64,000 nucleotides of DNA from a virus. Its lineage: Duplodnaviria > Caudoviricetes. Made by a program: the position numbers and the translations under genes. The notes under the pieces are model-generated. The model was not told the DNA's origin and made no database searches. It worked only from the letters and a program-made list of their open reading frames with translations. The stretch covers positions 25,931-89,930 of IMG/VR virus record IMGVR_UViG_3300005200_000008. One strand, written 5' to 3'. Shown here in pieces: positions 55,385-64,000 of this stretch (its first letter is position 1; each line of letters starts with the position of its first letter).

Positions 55385-55430
55385 GAAAAAAAAAGAGCTA
55401 ATGCCGAAAAGTATCGGAAGTCCTTATTAG

Positions 55431-55495
55431 TGGGATGCTGAAGAACGGGGTTACTTAATTTGGGTTTAACATTCCCCGCTTGCTGCTCGCTCCCA
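55431..55495 (+). ncRNA. minimal Y-like RNA upstream of Ro60
   Basis: GGGA-T-GCTGAAG ... CTCGC-TCCC bulged helix plus inner CGGGG/CCCCG stem. Confidence 0.6.
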
Positions 55496-55556
55496 AATTT
55501 TAATCGCCCCCCCCCCCGCAATAGCGGGTGCGGTCGAAAGTATCAAGGAGTGAATT

Positions 55557-56924
55557 ATGGCCTCTACGAATACGAGGGTGCGCAATACCCGTAAAACGCA
55601 TGAAGGCGGCCCGGCTTCGATAATCAAGCCGTTGGAGCAACTTAAACGTTCCGTTATGTCGTGCTTGTTGTGGGAAGATTCTTTTTACGAGGACGGCGTA
55701 TCCATTGCCGACCGCGTAAAGGAACTCGTCGGGAAAGTGTCCGAGGAGGAAGCGCGGCAGGTTCTTTTCGATGCGAAGTTTAAGTCGAAACTCCGGCATA
55801 TGCCGTTGTATCTGCTGACTATTCTGGCCGAAAAGAAATGGCTGAAAAAGGACGACGTAGCCAGGGTCTGCACCCGCGTTGATGACATGACCAAACTTTT
55901 GTCGCTGTATTGGAAGGACGGCAAAAAACCGTTAAGCCACCAGTTGATTAAGGGCTTGGCTCAGGCAATCCCTACGTTTGACGAATACAAACTGGCGAAG
56001 TATAACCGCTCCAAGGCGGTGAAACTCAGGGACGTGTTCCGCATTGCAAGGCCGAAGCCGGCAAACGAAGCGCAGTCTGCCCTCTGGAAACGGGTCGTCG
56101 CCGATGAATTGAAAGTTCCTGATACGTGGGAAGTCGCCATTAGCGCCTGCGGCAGTGATAACCAGAAGAAGGCTCAGGAATTTACCCGGCTGCTGACTGA
56201 AAAAGTTCGTGACGAGGAAACCGGCAAAGAGTTCAACAAACTCGGTGATCTGGCTTTTCTTCGCAACATACGGAAGATGAAGGAAGTCGGCGTTGAGGAA
56301 GATTTGATTCGTAAATCTTTTGAAGACCGGAAATGGGGGTGGATTATCCCTTACCAGTTCATTACCGCCGCTTCGCACAATCCGGTTTTTGAGGACGTAC
56401 TGGAAAACGCGATGTACAAATGCCTGGGCGAACAGGAACCTATTGAAGATAAGGCCGCCCTGCTGGTTGACGTGTCAGGTTCGATGGACAGCAAAATTTC
56501 CGACAAGTCGGAAGTCAAGCGTTACGATGTCGCTATCAGCCTTGCTATTCTGCTCCGCGAAATCTGCAAGGACGTGAAACTGTATACTTTTGACAATGAA
56601 CTTCATGTTATCCCGCCACGGCGCGGTTTCGCCCTGCGTGATACGATACGCAAGCAGGTAGGCGGCGGGACGAGTATGTGGAGCGCGGCAAGAGGCGCCG
56701 CGAAAGATCGGCGCAACAGGGTAATGGTGATTATCACCGACGAGCAGACGCAGGATAGCGGCAGGTATTCAGATGCCAATGCCGATCTGCTGGTAATCAT
56801 CAACGTCGCTTCTTATGAGAACGGCGTAGGCTACGAAAAAGGTTGTGTTCACATCAATTCTTGGTCTGACAATATCGTAGATTATCTGCGGGAACTTTTG
56901 AAAAATATGGAATTTGTAGTTTAA
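55557..56924 (+). CDS. Ro60/TROVE-domain RNA-binding protein with vWA domain
   Basis: KTHEGG, LWEDSFYE, LRHMP, TWEV..S, LVDVSGSM MIDAS, GGTSM, ITDEQ. Confidence 0.93.
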   Translation: MASTNTRVRNTRKTHEGGPASIIKPLEQLKRSVMSCLLWEDSFYEDGVSIADRVKELVGKVSEEEARQVLFDAKFKSKLRHMPLYLLTILAEKKWLKKDDVARVCTRVDDMTKLLSLYWKDGKKPLSHQLIKGLAQAIPTFDEYKLAKYNRSKAVKLRDVFRIARPKPANEAQSALWKRVVADELKVPDTWEVAISACGSDNQKKAQEFTRLLTEKVRDEETGKEFNKLGDLAFLRNIRKMKEVGVEEDLIRKSFEDRKWGWIIPYQFITAASHNPVFEDVLENAMYKCLGEQEPIEDKAALLVDVSGSMDSKISDKSEVKRYDVAISLAILLREICKDVKLYTFDNELHVIPPRRGFALRDTIRKQVGGGTSMWSAARGAAKDRRNRVMVIITDEQTQDSGRYSDANADLLVIINVASYENGVGYEKGCVHINSWSDNIVDYLRELLKNMEFVV

Positions 56925-56990: not shown

Positions 56991-57124
56991 TGGTAGGTAG
57001 GCAAATGGTAAAGCCGAAGGTAATAAAAAGAGCCTGTGCGTTTCTTGCTCCTGAAAAGGATGTCGTAGTGTAGGAATTCTTAATCAGGAACCTTTGTTTG
57101 ATGGTTCAAGTCCATCCCTACCAA
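56991..57124 (+). ncRNA. tRNA-Y chimera 1 (68-nt insert in place of the anticodon loop)
   Basis: TGGTAGG/CCTACCA acceptor, D and T arms, AAGGT/ACCTT stem enclosing CTTGC-TCC...GGA-T-GTCGTAG. Confidence 0.7.
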
Positions 57125-57455
57125 AAAAGGCTTTTGGTTAAAAAATAGCAAGTTGAGCCTGAAAGGTTAATAACCTTTTAAATCAATTCCGGTGAACGTG
57201 TGGTTCAGCCTACACTTGGTGTTATTGACTTGGCTATCTAACCCGCACTACTGGAGTGCGGGTATGTCTTGAATACATCGGGGAGTAGGGGTTAATCGGG
57301 TAGGTATAAGTTACGGTGCGTTGGAGTTCGGAGCGTGCAAGGTTTGAATCACTACACCCCGCCAGCGATGAGTATGCCAATACCGAGCTAAATCCGGCAG
57401 TCAAGGCAGTAAGAGTAATCTTACTGCCTTGGCTGTACTAGACAATTCGTTAATT

Positions 57456-57525
57456 AGGGTGCTGACAAAGCAGGGTTTCATATTCATTTGGAGAATAACC
57501 AGATCCCTGTTTGACACTTGCCCCT
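57456..57525 (+). ncRNA. minimal Y-like RNA
   Basis: AGGG-T-GCTGAC ... CTTGC-CCCT plus GCAGGG/CCCTGT stem. Confidence 0.55.
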
Positions 57526-57537
57526 ATTTATATATTA

Positions 57538-57640
57538 GGGAGTGTTGCCTAGTTGGTAAGGCAATCTTTTTTCAATCCTTACTCTCGCAAGAGATGTCGG
57601 CGAAAAGAGATACATATTAGTTCAAATCTAATCACTCCCG
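57538..57640 (+). ncRNA. tRNA-Y chimera 2
   Basis: GGGAGTG/CACTCCC acceptor; insert CTTAC-TCTC-GCAA-GAGA-T-GTCGGCG. Confidence 0.7.
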
Positions 57641-57641
57641 T

Positions 57642-57754
57642 AGGGTGCTGTAGGCGCCGGTTACATAGGTAAATAATTTTTTTTGAAAAAATTTAGCGGG
57701 TTCAAGTCCCGCAAGCCCTTCGGGGTCAGCCGGTGCCGCCTCTCGCCCCTTTTT
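57642..57754 (+). ncRNA. YrlA-like RNA
   Basis: AGGG-T-GCTGTAG ... CTCGC-CCCT-TTTT; internal T arm GCGGG-TTCAAGT-CCCGC and UUCG-closed stem. Confidence 0.65.
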
Positions 57755-57760
57755 ACATGG

Positions 57761-57890
57761 GAAAGCGTAGCTCAGTTGGTAGAGCAATAGCAAAAATGTT
57801 CTTTCGTTGCTTTTTACTCCTACGGGATGTTGTAGACGAGAGTTACTTAATCAGGGCTGTGGGTCATTGGTTCGAGTCCAATCGTTTTCC
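57761..57890 (+). ncRNA. tRNA-Y chimera 3
   Basis: GAAAGCG/CGTTTTC acceptor, canonical D and T arms; insert TTTAC-TCC-TACG-GGA-T-GTTGTAG. Confidence 0.7.
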
Positions 57891-58122: not shown

Positions 58123-58194
58123 GCGTTATAGGTGTTGATGGATACACGCCGGTCTTCCAAACCGGAGTAAACGGATCGTTACCGTTATGACGCT
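58123..58194 (+). tRNA. tRNA-Gly(TCC)
   Basis: GCGTTAT/ATGACGC, CCGGT-CTTCCAA-ACCGG, U73; T loop ATCGTTA. Confidence 0.8.
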
Positions 58195-62890: not shown

Positions 62891-64000
62891 ATGGATCGGA
62901 AAATAATCTATCAGGTAGAATCTGGCTCCCAACTGTACGGCACGTCTACGCCGGCTTCCGACACCGATTATTCCTCGGTTTTCATGCCTACGCCTTATGA
63001 TTTGTTTTCGCTTCAAAAATGCGAGTACATAGACAACAGCACCAAGAACTCGGCAAGTAACCGGCGCAATACCGCCGACGACGTGGACGATCAAATGTAT
63101 TCGATAAGCCGGTATCTCCATCTTGTTTTAAACGGCAATCCGAACCTGATAGAAATTCTTTTTTGCAATAAGCCGGTTATTGAAGAACCGGTATTTACCG
63201 AAATAAAAAAGAATTATCAAAAACTGCTATCCAAAAGGATTTATGATTCGTTTACCGGTTTTGCCATAAGCCAGAGAAGGAAACTGGAATATAAAGCCCT
63301 GCGTTTTGGCCAGTTGAGAAAAACTTTAAAATGGCTTGAAGAAAACAGATCGGCGGTTGTCGCGGATCCGTCTGCCCAAATGAGCTTGGAAGACGCCGAT
63401 ACGCTCAATTCAATGCTTTCCGAATACAAGGGTGATAAAAGCAACAAACAGCATTTCCATGAAAATCTGCCTTGGAAAATAATTTATGAGAAAATTAAAA
63501 AGGAATATGAAACCTACGGTTGGCGTGTAAAAACAGACACGTTTGAAACGCTCGGTTATGACGTGAAATTCGCTTCCCATGCCATACGGCTTTTCCATGA
63601 AGGGAAACAACTCATGCTGACCGGCAGATTGGAGTTTCCTATTACTGGTCAGCCTTACGACGATATTATGTCTATTCGGCGCGGTGAAGTTTCACTGGAA
63701 TCTTTTTACAACGTTTGCGACCGCTATGAAGAAGAGAACCGGCAAGCGAAAGAAAAGTCAATCCTTCCCGAACAGGCAGATTGGAAATGGGCGAACCAAT
63801 ATCTTGTTGACACGCTGGAAAAGCATATTGTACGCCTGTCGAAATTTGGCGACAAGCCGAATTGCTGGAATTGCAAATTTTCAGAAGAGACCGGCAACGA
63901 GGTATGGCCTATCAGATGTAAGGTTCCGGGATTAAATCCTGTTAATATCCGAAAAAACGCGAAAATTCTTCAAGAAGGAGAGTATTGCCGGGGTTTTGCA
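62891..64000 (+). CDS. DNA polymerase beta-superfamily nucleotidyltransferase (runs off window end; not in ORF track)
   Basis: MDRKIIYQVESGSQLYGTSTPASDTD, NGNPNLIEILF, GYDVKFASHAIRL; no stop before base 64000. Confidence 0.85.
   Translation, partial: MDRKIIYQVESGSQLYGTSTPASDTDYSSVFMPTPYDLFSLQKCEYIDNSTKNSASNRRNTADDVDDQMYSISRYLHLVLNGNPNLIEILFCNKPVIEEPVFTEIKKNYQKLLSKRIYDSFTGFAISQRRKLEYKALRFGQLRKTLKWLEENRSAVVADPSAQMSLEDADTLNSMLSEYKGDKSNKQHFHENLPWKIIYEKIKKEYETYGWRVKTDTFETLGYDVKFASHAIRLFHEGKQLMLTGRLEFPITGQPYDDIMSIRRGEVSLESFYNVCDRYEEENRQAKEKSILPEQADWKWANQYLVDTLEKHIVRLSKFGDKPNCWNCKFSEETGNEVWPIRCKVPGLNPVNIRKNAKILQEGEYCRGFA

What the first reader, a model, noticed from the sequence alone, without database searches (positions are those of the whole stretch)
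56991..57890. tRNA-Y RNA chimeras: intact cloverleaves whose anticodon loop is replaced by a Ro-binding-like helix
Seen in sequence: three RNAs downstream of the Ro60 gene (56991-57124, 57538-57640, 57761-57890) have proper acceptor, D and T arms but about 30-70-nt inserts. All inserts share YTT-R-C-TC(C)-loop-(G)GA-T-GTYG, capped by different loops (TGAAAA, GCAA, TACG). The same two strands occur in the opposite order in linear Y-like RNAs at the locus. RNA 55431-55495 and chimera 3 also share flanks (ACGGGG-TTACTTAAT versus ACGAGAG-TTACTTAAT; CCCCGCTTGC versus CTTTCGTTGC), so the chimeras look like circular permutations. Established knowledge: bacterial Y RNAs bind Ro via a bulged helix with a GNCGAAG-like 5' strand, and YrlA has a tRNA-like module with a loop-closed acceptor stem. 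Inference: here the acceptor ends are free, so these RNAs could be matured by RNase P or CCA-adding enzyme, or aminoacylated, while tethered to Ro60, acting as decoys or adaptors for tRNA-targeting enzymes.
Basis: partly seen in the sequence, partly recalled or inferred. Interest (0 to 1): 0.9.

Follow-up and report, generated by a model that had tools for sequence, protein, structure and literature searches.

The report
tRNA-shaped Y RNAs beside phage Ro60
Downstream of its Ro60 gene this phage encodes three RNAs that are complete tRNA bodies carrying the Ro60-docking hairpin of Y RNAs where the anticodon loop should be; the same unannotated design recurs in dozens of phages, including the cultured gut phage crAss001, and I found no description of it in the papers I could read.

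Summary
Three RNAs at 56991-57124, 57538-57640 and 57761-57890 have 7-bp acceptor stems, D and T arms and all the tRNA tertiary nucleotides. Inserts of 68, 33 and 64 nt sit in the anticodon loop. Each insert is a closed hairpin with the same two strands as the linear Y RNAs of this locus, in reversed order.

A covariance model and a Ro60-independent pattern scan of IMG/VR found 48 distinct homologues. 93% of cells pair and 30 of 33 pairs covary. 27 of 42 tRNA-topology pattern hits lie 100-850 nt from a Ro60 gene on the same strand. One lies unannotated beside the TROVE gene of crAss001.

They are best read as YrlA-type Y RNAs with native tRNA connectivity: open acceptor end, closed Ro60 helix. 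They are not intron-bearing tRNAs. Ro60 binding, RNase P and CCA maturation, and function are inferred, not shown.

Outside this clade most members keep a full anticodon arm (Lys UUU, Thr UGU, Asn GUU). Five fragmentary jumbo-phage records (14-70% complete) carry them without a TROVE gene.

I rate it a new variant of a known kind. This scan noted the same layout earlier on other phage DNA (e1-1940638, e1-5779825). I could not read the paper describing b7a-tRNA, so overlap with it is not excluded.

The parts
55557..56924 (+). Ro60 (TROVE + vWA) gene, 455 aa
   Evidence: Pfam TROVE E 1.6e-5 and VWA_2. Full-length match to Thermus phage phiLo Ro60 structures 9KOP and 9L5Y, E 2e-21. Thousands of homologues, some named 60 kDa SS-A/Ro ribonucleoprotein.
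55428..55503 (+). Linear Y-like RNA upstream of Ro60. 5' strand GGGAUGCUGAAG, helix ACGGGG/CCCCG, UUACUUAAU in the apical part, 3' strand CUUGCUGCUCGCUCCC, then a U-rich tail.
   Evidence: Sequence, motif hit at 55436, same layout upstream of Ro60 in L011 and L012.
56991..57124 (+). Chimera W1. Acceptor 56991-56997/57117-57123, discriminator A 57124, closing stem AAGGU/ACCUU 57017-57021/57090-57094, T arm 57100-57116. 68-nt insert 57022-57089.
   Evidence: ARAGORN -i; R1 83.6 bits, 7/7 acceptor pairs.
57033..57074 (+). Ro-type hairpin of W1. Helix H2 CCUGUGC/GUGUAGG, strand CUUGCUCC, loop UGAAAA 57052-57057, strand GGAUGUCGUAG.
   Evidence: Sequence; aligned to the family consensus.
57456..57530 (+). 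Linear Y-like RNA (AGGGUGCUGAC ... CACUUGCCCCUAUUU)
   Evidence: Sequence only. Same strand order as 55428-55503. Not analysed further here.
57538..57640 (+). Chimera W2. 10-bp stem AUCUUUUUUC/GAAAAGAGAU 57564-57573/57602-57611 in the anticodon-stem position.
   Evidence: Rfam tRNA 47.9 bits; clean cloverleaf fold with z = -5.2; R1 76.9 bits.
57574..57601 (+). Ro-type hairpin of W2. CCUUACUCUC, loop GCAA 57587-57590, GAGAUGUCGGCG.
57642..57758 (+). YrlB-like Y RNA. The Ro helix is formed by its 5' and 3' ends (AGGGUGCUGUAG ... CUCGCCCC + UUUUU). It encloses a T arm (57696-57712) and a small hairpin, with no D arm. It starts 2 nt after W2 and ends 2-3 nt before W3.
   Evidence: Fold; tmRNA/tRNA-type T-arm hit and the weak cross-unit YrlA hit at 29 bits; motif hit at 57646.
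57761..57890 (+). Chimera W3. Acceptor GAAAGCG/CGUUUUC with an extra G-1:C73 pair. Closing stem AUAGC/GCUGU 57787-57791/57856-57860. 64-nt insert.
   Evidence: Rfam tRNA 45.3 bits; R1 110.4 bits; flanks.
57801..57849 (+). Ro-type module of W3. H2 CUUUCGU/ACGAGAG 57801-57807/57836-57842, UUUUUACUCC, loop UACG 57821-57824, GGA-U-GU-UGUAG, then the invariant UUACUUA 57843-57849.
62891..64000 (+). RlaP-type nucleotidyltransferase of RNA-repair systems, cut by the contig end. Context only, 5 kb downstream.
   Evidence: Pfam PF10127, E 1e-16.

Best explanation
W1, W2 and W3 are Y RNAs, that is, partner RNAs of the phage Ro60 protein. They belong to the YrlA kind but have the connectivity of a real tRNA. 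The 5' and 3' ends form the acceptor stem. The D arm, T arm and variable loop build a normal tRNA elbow. The arm in the anticodon position is a helix (H2) topped by the bulged Ro60-binding helix, which is closed by a short loop at the point where linear Y RNAs have their ends.

Shown here: the fold, its conservation and covariation, its sequence motifs shared with the linear and YrlB-like Y RNAs of the same locus, and its frequent position next to Ro60 genes on the same strand.

Inferred: Ro60 docks on the apical hairpin. The RNAs are cut out of a Ro60-Y RNA polycistronic transcript by the host tRNA-processing enzymes (RNase P at the 5' end, 3' trimming, CCA addition). The exposed tRNA body then brings a tRNA-binding partner to Ro60. 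That partner could be an RNA-repair or RNA-decay enzyme, or a tRNA-targeting nuclease. This parallels how Y RNA tethers Ro60 to PNPase in Deinococcus.
For: Three independent programs see tRNA bodies with inserts.

Model R1 separates true members from ordinary tRNAs and from tandem conventional YrlA arrays. True members score 75-115 bits, with 7/7 acceptor pairs and apical loops mostly 2-11 nt. Ordinary tRNAs score at most about 65 bits. YrlA arrays score 20-73 bits, with 2-5 of 7 acceptor pairs and 11-56-nt 'loops' that contain U-tails.

Alignment A5 holds 48 distinct sequences. 93.3% of cells pair, against 64% in shuffles and 40-48% when partners are slid. 30 of 33 pairs have compensatory changes. 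The acceptor stem is 98.8% paired, H2 91.6% and the apical helix 92.9%. RNAalifold on a plain MAFFT alignment recovers the acceptor, D and T arms.

The tRNA tertiary nucleotides are conserved. U8, A14, G18, A21, T54, T55, C56, A58 and C61 are invariant in 48/48, and G19 in 47/48. The Levitt pair 15:48 covaries (G:C 38, A:U 7). The D stem GCUC/GAGC is present in 46/48, as in the Rfam YrlA consensus.

In the Ro module the bulged U is 48/48, followed by G-K-Y-G-N-A-G. This resembles the GNCGAAN0-1G motif that Chen et al. 2014 (PMC4201824) link to Ro60 binding. UUACUU follows H2 in 47-48 of 48. The same module, RTGYYGNAG plus 7 nt plus TTACTT, sits in linear Y RNAs of the same loci. The clade-specific variant (UGCUG or UGUUG here, UGGYG elsewhere) is shared by both forms within a locus.

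A Ro60-independent scan of IMG/VR gave 61 matches where about 0.1 was expected. 42 have at least 6/7 acceptor pairs. 27 of these lie 100-850 nt from a Ro60 gene on the same strand.

Units abut their neighbours by 1-5 nt, as in tRNA operons (W2 to the next Y RNA, L014, L019). CCA is encoded in 5 of 48, against 0.75 expected, and position -1 pairs with 73 in 35 of 48.

Precedent: M. smegmatis YrlA is cut by RNase P and receives CCA in vivo (PMC4201824).
Against: No binding, expression or processing data exist for any member.

The Ro motif here is a variant (GUCGUAG, GUCGGCG, GUUGUAG), not the canonical GNCGAAG.

Linkage to Ro60 is not universal. 15 of 42 tRNA-topology hits have no Ro60 in the fetched locus. 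Five jumbo-phage records (14-70% complete) that carry such RNAs inside tRNA arrays have no TROVE or DUF2828 match.

The closest Ro60 relatives L011, L012 and L020 (78-81% identity) have no chimera.

Alignment A5 was fitted to the model, which inflates pair counts.

Promoter and terminator scans of the locus give no more sites than chance, so the transcript structure is unknown.
Confidence: 0.7

Rival explanations
1. They are ordinary tRNA genes interrupted by short introns. The introns are spliced out to give working tRNAs: ARAGORN proposes Leu-CAG for W1 and W3 and a UCA reader for W2.
For: ARAGORN with introns allowed can leave a 7-nt loop with U33 and a purine at 37 in W1 (AUCAGGA) and W3 (CUCAGGG). 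In other phage clades the anticodon arm is complete.
Against: The proposed 'anticodons' of homologues are arbitrary (cag, agg, aat, atc, tac, gaa). The proposed intron positions range from 30 to 39, not the canonical 37/38. A CAG reader would be tRNA-Leu, yet these RNAs have a 5-nt variable loop and no long arm. The closest relatives L014 and L018 do not conserve UCAGG. The inserts are 33-77 nt, too small for a group I intron, and no intron family was hit at E up to 10. The insert is the most conserved part and carries the Y-RNA motifs. From my own knowledge, no splicing endonuclease is known in bacteria or phages.
Confidence: 0.04
2. They are tRNA-shaped RNAs whose extra arm does not serve Ro60. 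The arm would dock another factor or shield the RNA, so that they act as decoys or resistant substitutes against host anticodon nucleases, independently of Ro60.
For: Members in five jumbo-phage records sit in tRNA arrays with no TROVE gene detected. Many relatives keep full anticodon arms of Lys(UUU), Thr(UGU) and Asn(GUU). These are the three tRNAs cut by PARIS AriB (PMC12409363).
Against: In this window all three lie within 840 nt of Ro60 on the same strand, and no such RNA scored above 75 bits elsewhere in the 64-kb window (the first 25.9 kb of the record were checked only with the Rfam tRNA model). The arm carries the same strands as the linear Y RNAs flanking Ro60. 27 of 42 hits are Ro60-adjacent. 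The TROVE-less records are fragments, and hosts such as Bacteroides encode their own Ro60 (control). The window's RNAs have no closed anticodon loop to act as a decoy.
Confidence: 0.15
3. The tRNA reading is an artefact of tandem arrays. The real RNAs would be conventional permuted YrlAs running from the T arm of one unit to the D arm of the next.
For: Rfam YrlA gives a weak cross-unit hit at 57666-57816 (29 bits against a gathering score of 69) and another in L068 (27 bits). In a tandem array the two readings share the same cyclic order of elements.
Against: W1 stands alone between the Ro60 stop codon and unrelated RNAs. Each unit's 5' strand pairs with its own 3' strand, and acceptor sequences differ between neighbours, for example TGGTAGG, GGGAGTG and GAAAGCG. 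The Ro helix is capped by 4-6-nt loops, including GCAA and UACG tetraloops. The would-be acceptor loop of the cross-unit reading is 55 nt long and contains another RNA's U-tail.
Confidence: 0.03

Closest known systems
YrlA (Y RNA-like A; Rfam RF02553; Chen et al. 2014, PMC4201824; crystal structure preprint 10.1101/312249)
   Same: Encoded next to Ro60 on the same strand. A GNCGAAG-like strand sits in a bulged helix. An intervening helix is followed by an ACU-containing junction, then the variable loop and T arm. The D stem is GCUC/GAGC, and the full set of tRNA tertiary nucleotides is present. The order of elements around the circle is identical.
   Different: In YrlA the RNA ends form the Ro helix and the acceptor stem is closed by a loop, so the T arm lies 5' of the D arm. 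Here the ends form a 7- to 8-bp acceptor stem and the Ro helix is closed by a loop. No element reaches the Rfam YrlA gathering score. The papers I could read call YrlA a circularly permuted tRNA and only raise the possibility that some YrlAs are processed towards canonical tRNA form.
[quoted passage not shown]
   Same: A Y RNA with an open, CCA-tailed acceptor end, which shows that tRNA enzymes can act on Y RNAs.
   Different: That is a two-piece product of cutting a closed acceptor loop. Here the open acceptor end is built into the gene, and 5 of 48 members encode CCA.
D. radiodurans Yrn1 and S. Typhimurium YrlB
   Same: The window's 57642-57758 RNA, and RNAs in L013 and L014, have the Ro helix at the RNA ends with a T arm inside, like these two. 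They coexist with the chimeras in one locus.
   Different: In those RNAs the Ro helix occupies the acceptor position. In the chimeras it occupies the anticodon position.
b7a-tRNA (band-7-associated tRNA-like RNA; Burroughs and Aravind 2016, as quoted in 10.1101/312249)
   Same: A predicted tRNA-like RNA of RNA-repair loci, said to lie occasionally next to Rsr. In crAss001 a band-7/SPFH gene (gp91) lies about 1.9 kb downstream of the chimera.
   Different: It is described as strongly resembling an authentic tRNA, and no Ro-type arm is mentioned in the quotation. The original paper is not held, so I could not check for overlap.
[quoted passage not shown]
   Same: Relatives of the window's RNAs carry exactly these three anticodon loops.
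   Different: The T5 RNAs are working tRNAs with no extra arm and no Ro60 link. The window's own three RNAs lack an anticodon loop.

Membership tests
YrlA (RF02553) | Encoded within a few kb of a Ro60/TROVE gene on the same strand | tested here: met
   W1, W2 and W3 start 67, 614 and 837 nt after the Ro60 stop codon, on the same strand.
YrlA (RF02553) | GNCGAAN0-1G motif on the strand leading into the variable loop and T arm | tested here: inconclusive
   Variants are present at the equivalent place: GUCGUAG, GUCGGCG and GUUGUAG. The family consensus is U(bulge)-G-K-Y-G-N-A-G. This is similar to the published motif but not identical.
YrlA (RF02553) | tRNA-like D and T arms with tertiary-interaction nucleotides | tested here: met
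   Nine tertiary nucleotides are invariant in 48/48 and G19 in 47/48. The Levitt pair covaries. The D stem GCUC/GAGC is present in 46/48.
YrlA (RF02553) | Permuted connectivity: Ro helix formed by the RNA ends, T arm 5' of the D arm, acceptor stem closed by a loop | tested here: not met
   The connectivity is the opposite. The acceptor stem is open (7/7 pairs between the two ends) and the Ro helix is closed by a 4-6-nt loop.
YrlA (RF02553) | Score at or above the Rfam gathering threshold (69 bits) | tested here: not met
   The only hit is a 29-bit cross-unit match at 57666-57816.
tRNA (RF00005) | Cloverleaf that reaches the Rfam gathering score (29 bits) | tested here: met
   W2 scores 47.9 and W3 45.3 bits. 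W1 is not reported by Rfam; only ARAGORN -i and R1 find it.
tRNA (RF00005) | 5-bp anticodon stem closed by a 7-nt loop that presents an anticodon | tested here: not met
   The loop position holds 68-, 33- and 64-nt structured inserts. Many relatives outside this clade do keep a full anticodon arm with the Ro arm inserted between positions 28 and 29.
Intron-bearing tRNA gene | A recognisable intron type (group I, or bulge-helix-bulge) at a consistent position, leaving a consistent anticodon | tested here: not met
   No intron family was hit at E up to 10. The positions and anticodons proposed by ARAGORN vary among homologues. A bulge-helix-bulge motif was checked only by eye at the W3 junctions and not found.
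b7a-tRNA | Features as defined by Burroughs and Aravind 2016 | not testable with these tools
   The paper is not held. Only a one-sentence description is available through 10.1101/312249.

The most novel reading that the evidence does not exclude
These are Ro60-tethered tRNA mimics used in the phage-host conflict over tRNAs. They would be matured, CCA-tailed and perhaps charged like tRNAs. The 8-bp acceptor stem with G-1:C73 is the tRNA-His identity mark, and the Lys-type relatives combine a UUU anticodon with A73. They would present a tRNA body to host anticodon nucleases or to RNA-repair enzymes, so that the Ro60 particle works as a decoy, sensor or repair platform. In relatives that body carries the anticodon loops of Lys, Thr and Asn, the known PARIS targets. 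The tRNA-connected form may also be the ancestral state from which permuted YrlA arose through tandem copies.
Probability: 0.2. Interest if true: 0.9.

Novelty: new variant of a known kind. Interest (0 to 1): 0.7.

Why it matters
Y RNAs are the obligate partners of Ro60, yet what the tRNA-like half of bacterial Y RNAs does is an open question. YrlA has been described as a tRNA mimic that lacks a free CCA end.

A widespread, conserved form with a genuine open acceptor end makes several ideas directly testable: whether Y RNAs are processed, CCA-tailed or even charged like tRNAs, and which tRNA-binding enzyme they bring to Ro60. Some members encode CCA, many have an extra terminal base pair, and many relatives keep a real anticodon arm.

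The family also bears on the published proposal that YrlA arose from tandem tRNA genes. It includes an unannotated gene in crAss001, a cultured member of the most abundant human-gut phage group, so experiments are feasible. In practice these genes can be mis-called as intron-bearing or pseudo tRNAs, or missed altogether.

Tried and rejected
Intron reading. I rejected it for the reasons given under the rivals.

Cross-unit YrlA reading. I rejected it because of acceptor-stem pairing and loop lengths.

Searching the nine nearest IMG/VR Ro60 loci (40-45% identity) gave only conventional YrlA hits. Closer relatives had to come from metagenomes.

MAFFT could not align the variable-length insert. RNAalifold therefore recovered only the tRNA arms, and the insert helices rest on the model-fitted alignment and on single-sequence folds.

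The 5-bp closing stem (P3) in model R1 fits the treponeme-phage clade only. Elsewhere only its first 2-3 pairs hold (helix 4 is 57% paired). Those members have a split anticodon stem instead.

Cultured phages Olaya, CcrColossus, Kabachok, RHph_TM30, Mvi-JY20 and RsoM2USA have no member above 63 bits.

80 bacterial Ro60 loci, mostly Acidobacteriota, gave no clear member. L146, L205 and L207 are ambiguous.

Promoter and terminator scans of the locus were uninformative.

Papers I wanted but which are not held: Burroughs and Aravind 2016, Sim and Wolin 2018, and Sim et al. 2020.
Full report
**What is there**

The window is the last 64 kb of an 89.9-kb IMG/VR virus record that CheckV rates 42% complete. 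ORF 55557-56924 (+) is a Ro60 protein. It has Pfam TROVE and vWA matches. It matches the Thermus phage phiLo Ro60 structures 9KOP and 9L5Y over its full length at E 2e-21. It has thousands of homologues, and one at 75% identity is named from a Treponema MAG.

The kilobase downstream of the gene contains no credible ORF and is packed with structured RNAs, all on the + strand.

**Checking the observation**

The Rfam tRNA model hits 57538-57640 (47.9 bits) and 57761-57890 (45.3 bits). It places 33 and 64 extra nucleotides in the anticodon loop. Default ARAGORN and Rfam miss 56991-57124. ARAGORN with introns allowed finds all three.

Each has a 7-bp acceptor stem, U8, a D arm, a 5-nt variable loop and a canonical T arm. 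The D arm of W1 is weaker, with 3 of 4 pairs. None has an encoded CCA.

Each insert folds as a helix (H2 in W1 and W3; a 10-bp stem in W2) topped by a short bulged hairpin. The hairpins read:
- W1: CUUGCUCC-UGAAAA-GGA-U-GU-CGUAG
- W2: CUUACUCUC-GCAA-GAGA-U-GU-CGGCG
- W3: UUUACUCC-UACG-GGA-U-GU-UGUAG

The linear Y-like RNAs of the locus carry the same two strands in the opposite order. One lies at about 55428-55503, one at 57456-57530, and a YrlB-like RNA lies at 57642-57758. In these, GGGAUGCUGAAG is at the 5' end and CUUGC...UCCC plus a U-run is at the 3' end.

The composite motif TGYYGNAR-N7-WTMCWT occurs three times in the window against 0.08 expected. The hits are the upstream linear Y RNA, the YrlB-like RNA and W3; W1 and W2 do not match this strict form.

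**Is it a family?**

Ro60 homologues at 38-82% identity were fetched from metagenomes, IMG/VR and GTDB genomes, about 215 loci in all. ARAGORN with introns found the same layout next to Ro60 in L014, L018, L019 (two copies), L042, L057, L068 (two copies), L073, L088 (two copies) and L108. 40 of its 42 long-insert calls lie on the Ro60 strand.

I built covariance model R1 from 17 sequences. It separates three classes:
- True members score 75-115 bits, with 7/7 acceptor pairs and an apical loop of 2-8 nt (20 nt in L014).
- Ordinary tRNAs score about 65 bits or less.
- Junctions of tandem conventional YrlA genes score 20-73 bits, with 2-5 of 7 acceptor pairs and 'loops' of 11-56 nt that contain U-tails.

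That third class shows how the two forms relate. The cyclic order of elements is the same, and only the position of the RNA ends differs.

**Linkage to Ro60 without using Ro60 as bait**

I scanned all of IMG/VR with a DNA pattern made of the D arm, the Ro strand, the UACUU motif and the T loop. About 0.1 matches are expected by chance. The scan returned 61 matches in 59 loci.

I read the acceptor strands by fixed offsets, without the model. 42 matches have at least 6/7 pairs, where chance would give about 1%. 27 of the 42 have a Ro60 gene 100-850 nt away on the same strand.

The remaining 15 are of two kinds. Some lie at locus edges. Others sit inside jumbo-phage tRNA arrays among homing-endonuclease genes. 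Five such records, 14-70% complete, have no TROVE or DUF2828 match. Linkage is therefore strong but not universal. Those phages may use host Ro60, or the gene may lie in the missing parts.

**Structure support**

Alignment A5 holds 54 hits, 48 of them distinct.
- 93.3% of cells pair, against 64% in shuffles and 40-48% with slid partners.
- 30 of 33 pairs show compensatory changes.
- The acceptor stem is 98.8% paired, H2 91.6% and the apical helix 92.9%.

The alignment is fitted to the model, so these figures lean high. The offset-based acceptor count and RNAalifold on a plain MAFFT alignment (13 of 16 predicted pairs compensatory) are independent of the model.

U8, A14, G18, A21, T54, T55, C56, A58 and C61 are invariant, and G19 is present in 47 of 48. 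The Levitt pair covaries (G15:C48 in 38, A15:U48 in 7). The D stem is GCUC/GAGC in 46 of 48, the same as the Rfam YrlA consensus.

In the Ro module the bulged U is invariant and is followed by G-K-Y-G-N-A-G. This is close to the GNCGAAN0-1G motif that Chen et al. 2014 tie to Ro60 contact. UUACUU after H2 is nearly invariant.

**What it is not**

It is not a set of intron-bearing tRNA genes.
- The 'anticodons' ARAGORN assigns are arbitrary across homologues.
- The proposed insert positions range from 30 to 39.
- The inserts are 33-77 nt, and no intron family was hit.
- The insert is the best-conserved part.

W1 and W3 could leave AUCAGGA and CUCAGGG loops (Leu-CAG-like). However, they have short variable loops, and the nearest relatives L014 and L018 do not keep this.

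It is not a mis-read conventional YrlA either. W1 stands alone, each unit pairs with itself, and the Ro helix is capped by tight loops.

**Mechanism**

Known from the literature:
- Y RNAs bind Ro60 through the bulged helix and tether it to a partner such as PNPase.
- YrlA's other half is a tRNA mimic with a closed acceptor stem and no free CCA end (PMC4201824; 10.1101/312249).
- M. smegmatis YrlA is nevertheless cut by RNase P and receives CCA.
- Thermus phage Ro60 binds phage Y-like RNAs and host PNPase (PMC12135203).

Inferred here: Ro60 docks on the apical hairpin. The units are released from a polycistronic transcript by tRNA-processing enzymes, because they abut their neighbours by 1-5 nt, as tRNAs do in operons. 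The free tRNA body then recruits a tRNA-binding partner.

Circumstantial support:
- CCA is encoded in 5 of 48 members, against 0.75 expected.
- Position -1 pairs with 73 in 35 of 48, against 37.5% expected.
- All 11 members with C73 have G-1, the tRNA-His signature.
- The phage encodes an RlaP nucleotidyltransferase of RNA-repair systems 5 kb away, at the contig end.

**A wider picture seen in passing**

Outside the treponeme-phage clade, most members keep a complete anticodon arm. The stem is split as 27-28, then linker plus Ro arm plus UUACUUC, then 29-31, a 7-nt loop and 39-43.

The clearly canonical loops are mostly Lys(UUU), with Thr(UGU) and Asn(GUU) in two each and Cys(GCA) in one; several other members carry less standard 7-nt loops. 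Lys, Thr and Asn are the three tRNAs cut by the PARIS effector AriB (PMC12409363).

The window's own three RNAs have no closed anticodon loop.

**A cultured example**

crAss001 (MH675552.1) has a member at complement(96453..96596), scoring 87.6 bits. It lies about 270 nt downstream of the TROVE gene gp96, in a 900-nt gap without annotation. A second variant without a D arm lies 110 nt further on. A band-7/SPFH gene (gp91) lies about 1.9 kb beyond the first member.

**Novelty**

The papers I could read describe YrlA as a permuted tRNA. They only raise the possibility that some YrlAs are processed towards tRNA form. None describes this connectivity.

The b7a-tRNA of Burroughs and Aravind 2016 is quoted as strongly resembling an authentic tRNA. 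I could not check it because the paper is not held.

Two earlier notes of this scan (e1-1940638, e1-5779825) report the same layout in other phages. They agree with this reading but are not independent evidence.

I rate the finding a new variant of a known kind, with interest 0.7.

Noticed in passing
window 62891-64000 (+): An ORF cut by the contig end matches RlaP (PF10127, E 1e-16), the nucleotidyltransferase that accompanies RNA ligases in RNA-repair systems. Any partner ligase would lie beyond the end of the record.
   Followed up: no
L217, L228, L243, L255, L260, L221, L261, L274, L254, L227, L259, L270 (coordinates): Relatives keep a full anticodon arm, with the Ro arm inserted between positions 28 and 29. 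The clearly canonical loops are Lys(UUU), Thr(UGU), Asn(GUU) and one Cys(GCA). The first three are the PARIS AriB targets.
   Followed up: partly
A5 members, flanks listed; window 57760 and 57890 for W3: The acceptor stems are often 8 bp. Position -1 pairs with 73 in 35 of 48. Every member with C73 has G-1, as in bacterial tRNA-His. This includes W3.
   Followed up: partly
L275 4088-4231 and 4343-4481 (crAss001 MH675552.1): Two tRNA-topology Y-like RNAs lie unannotated between TROVE gp96 and gp95. The second has an acceptor stem, T arm and Ro arm but no D arm. An SPFH/band-7 gene (gp91) follows about 1.9 kb beyond the first.
   Followed up: partly
L013 682-751, L015 81-152, L017 3869-3940, L018 339-408, L020 3907-3978: A 70-nt tRNA-Met(CAU)-like gene with an atypical D arm sits just upstream of Ro60 in the closest relatives. 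The window has the linear Y RNA at that position.
   Followed up: no
window 57140-57440: There are further structured segments. A possible fourth Y-like RNA (UAGCAAGUUGAG ... UUGACUUGGCUA) lies at about 57147-57240, followed by a GC-rich hairpin at 57241-57266. A GGGGAGUAG/CUACACCCC-closed element lies at about 57281-57372.
   Followed up: no
window 58123-58194 (+): A tRNA-Gly(UCC) call with a poor D arm scores only 39 bits. It lies between the RNA cluster and fliM.
   Followed up: no
L217, L227, L228, L254: Jumbo-phage tRNA arrays are interspersed with GIY-YIG and DUF559/NUMOD3 homing-endonuclease genes. They hold several long tRNA-like hits each and have no TROVE gene in the record.
   Followed up: partly
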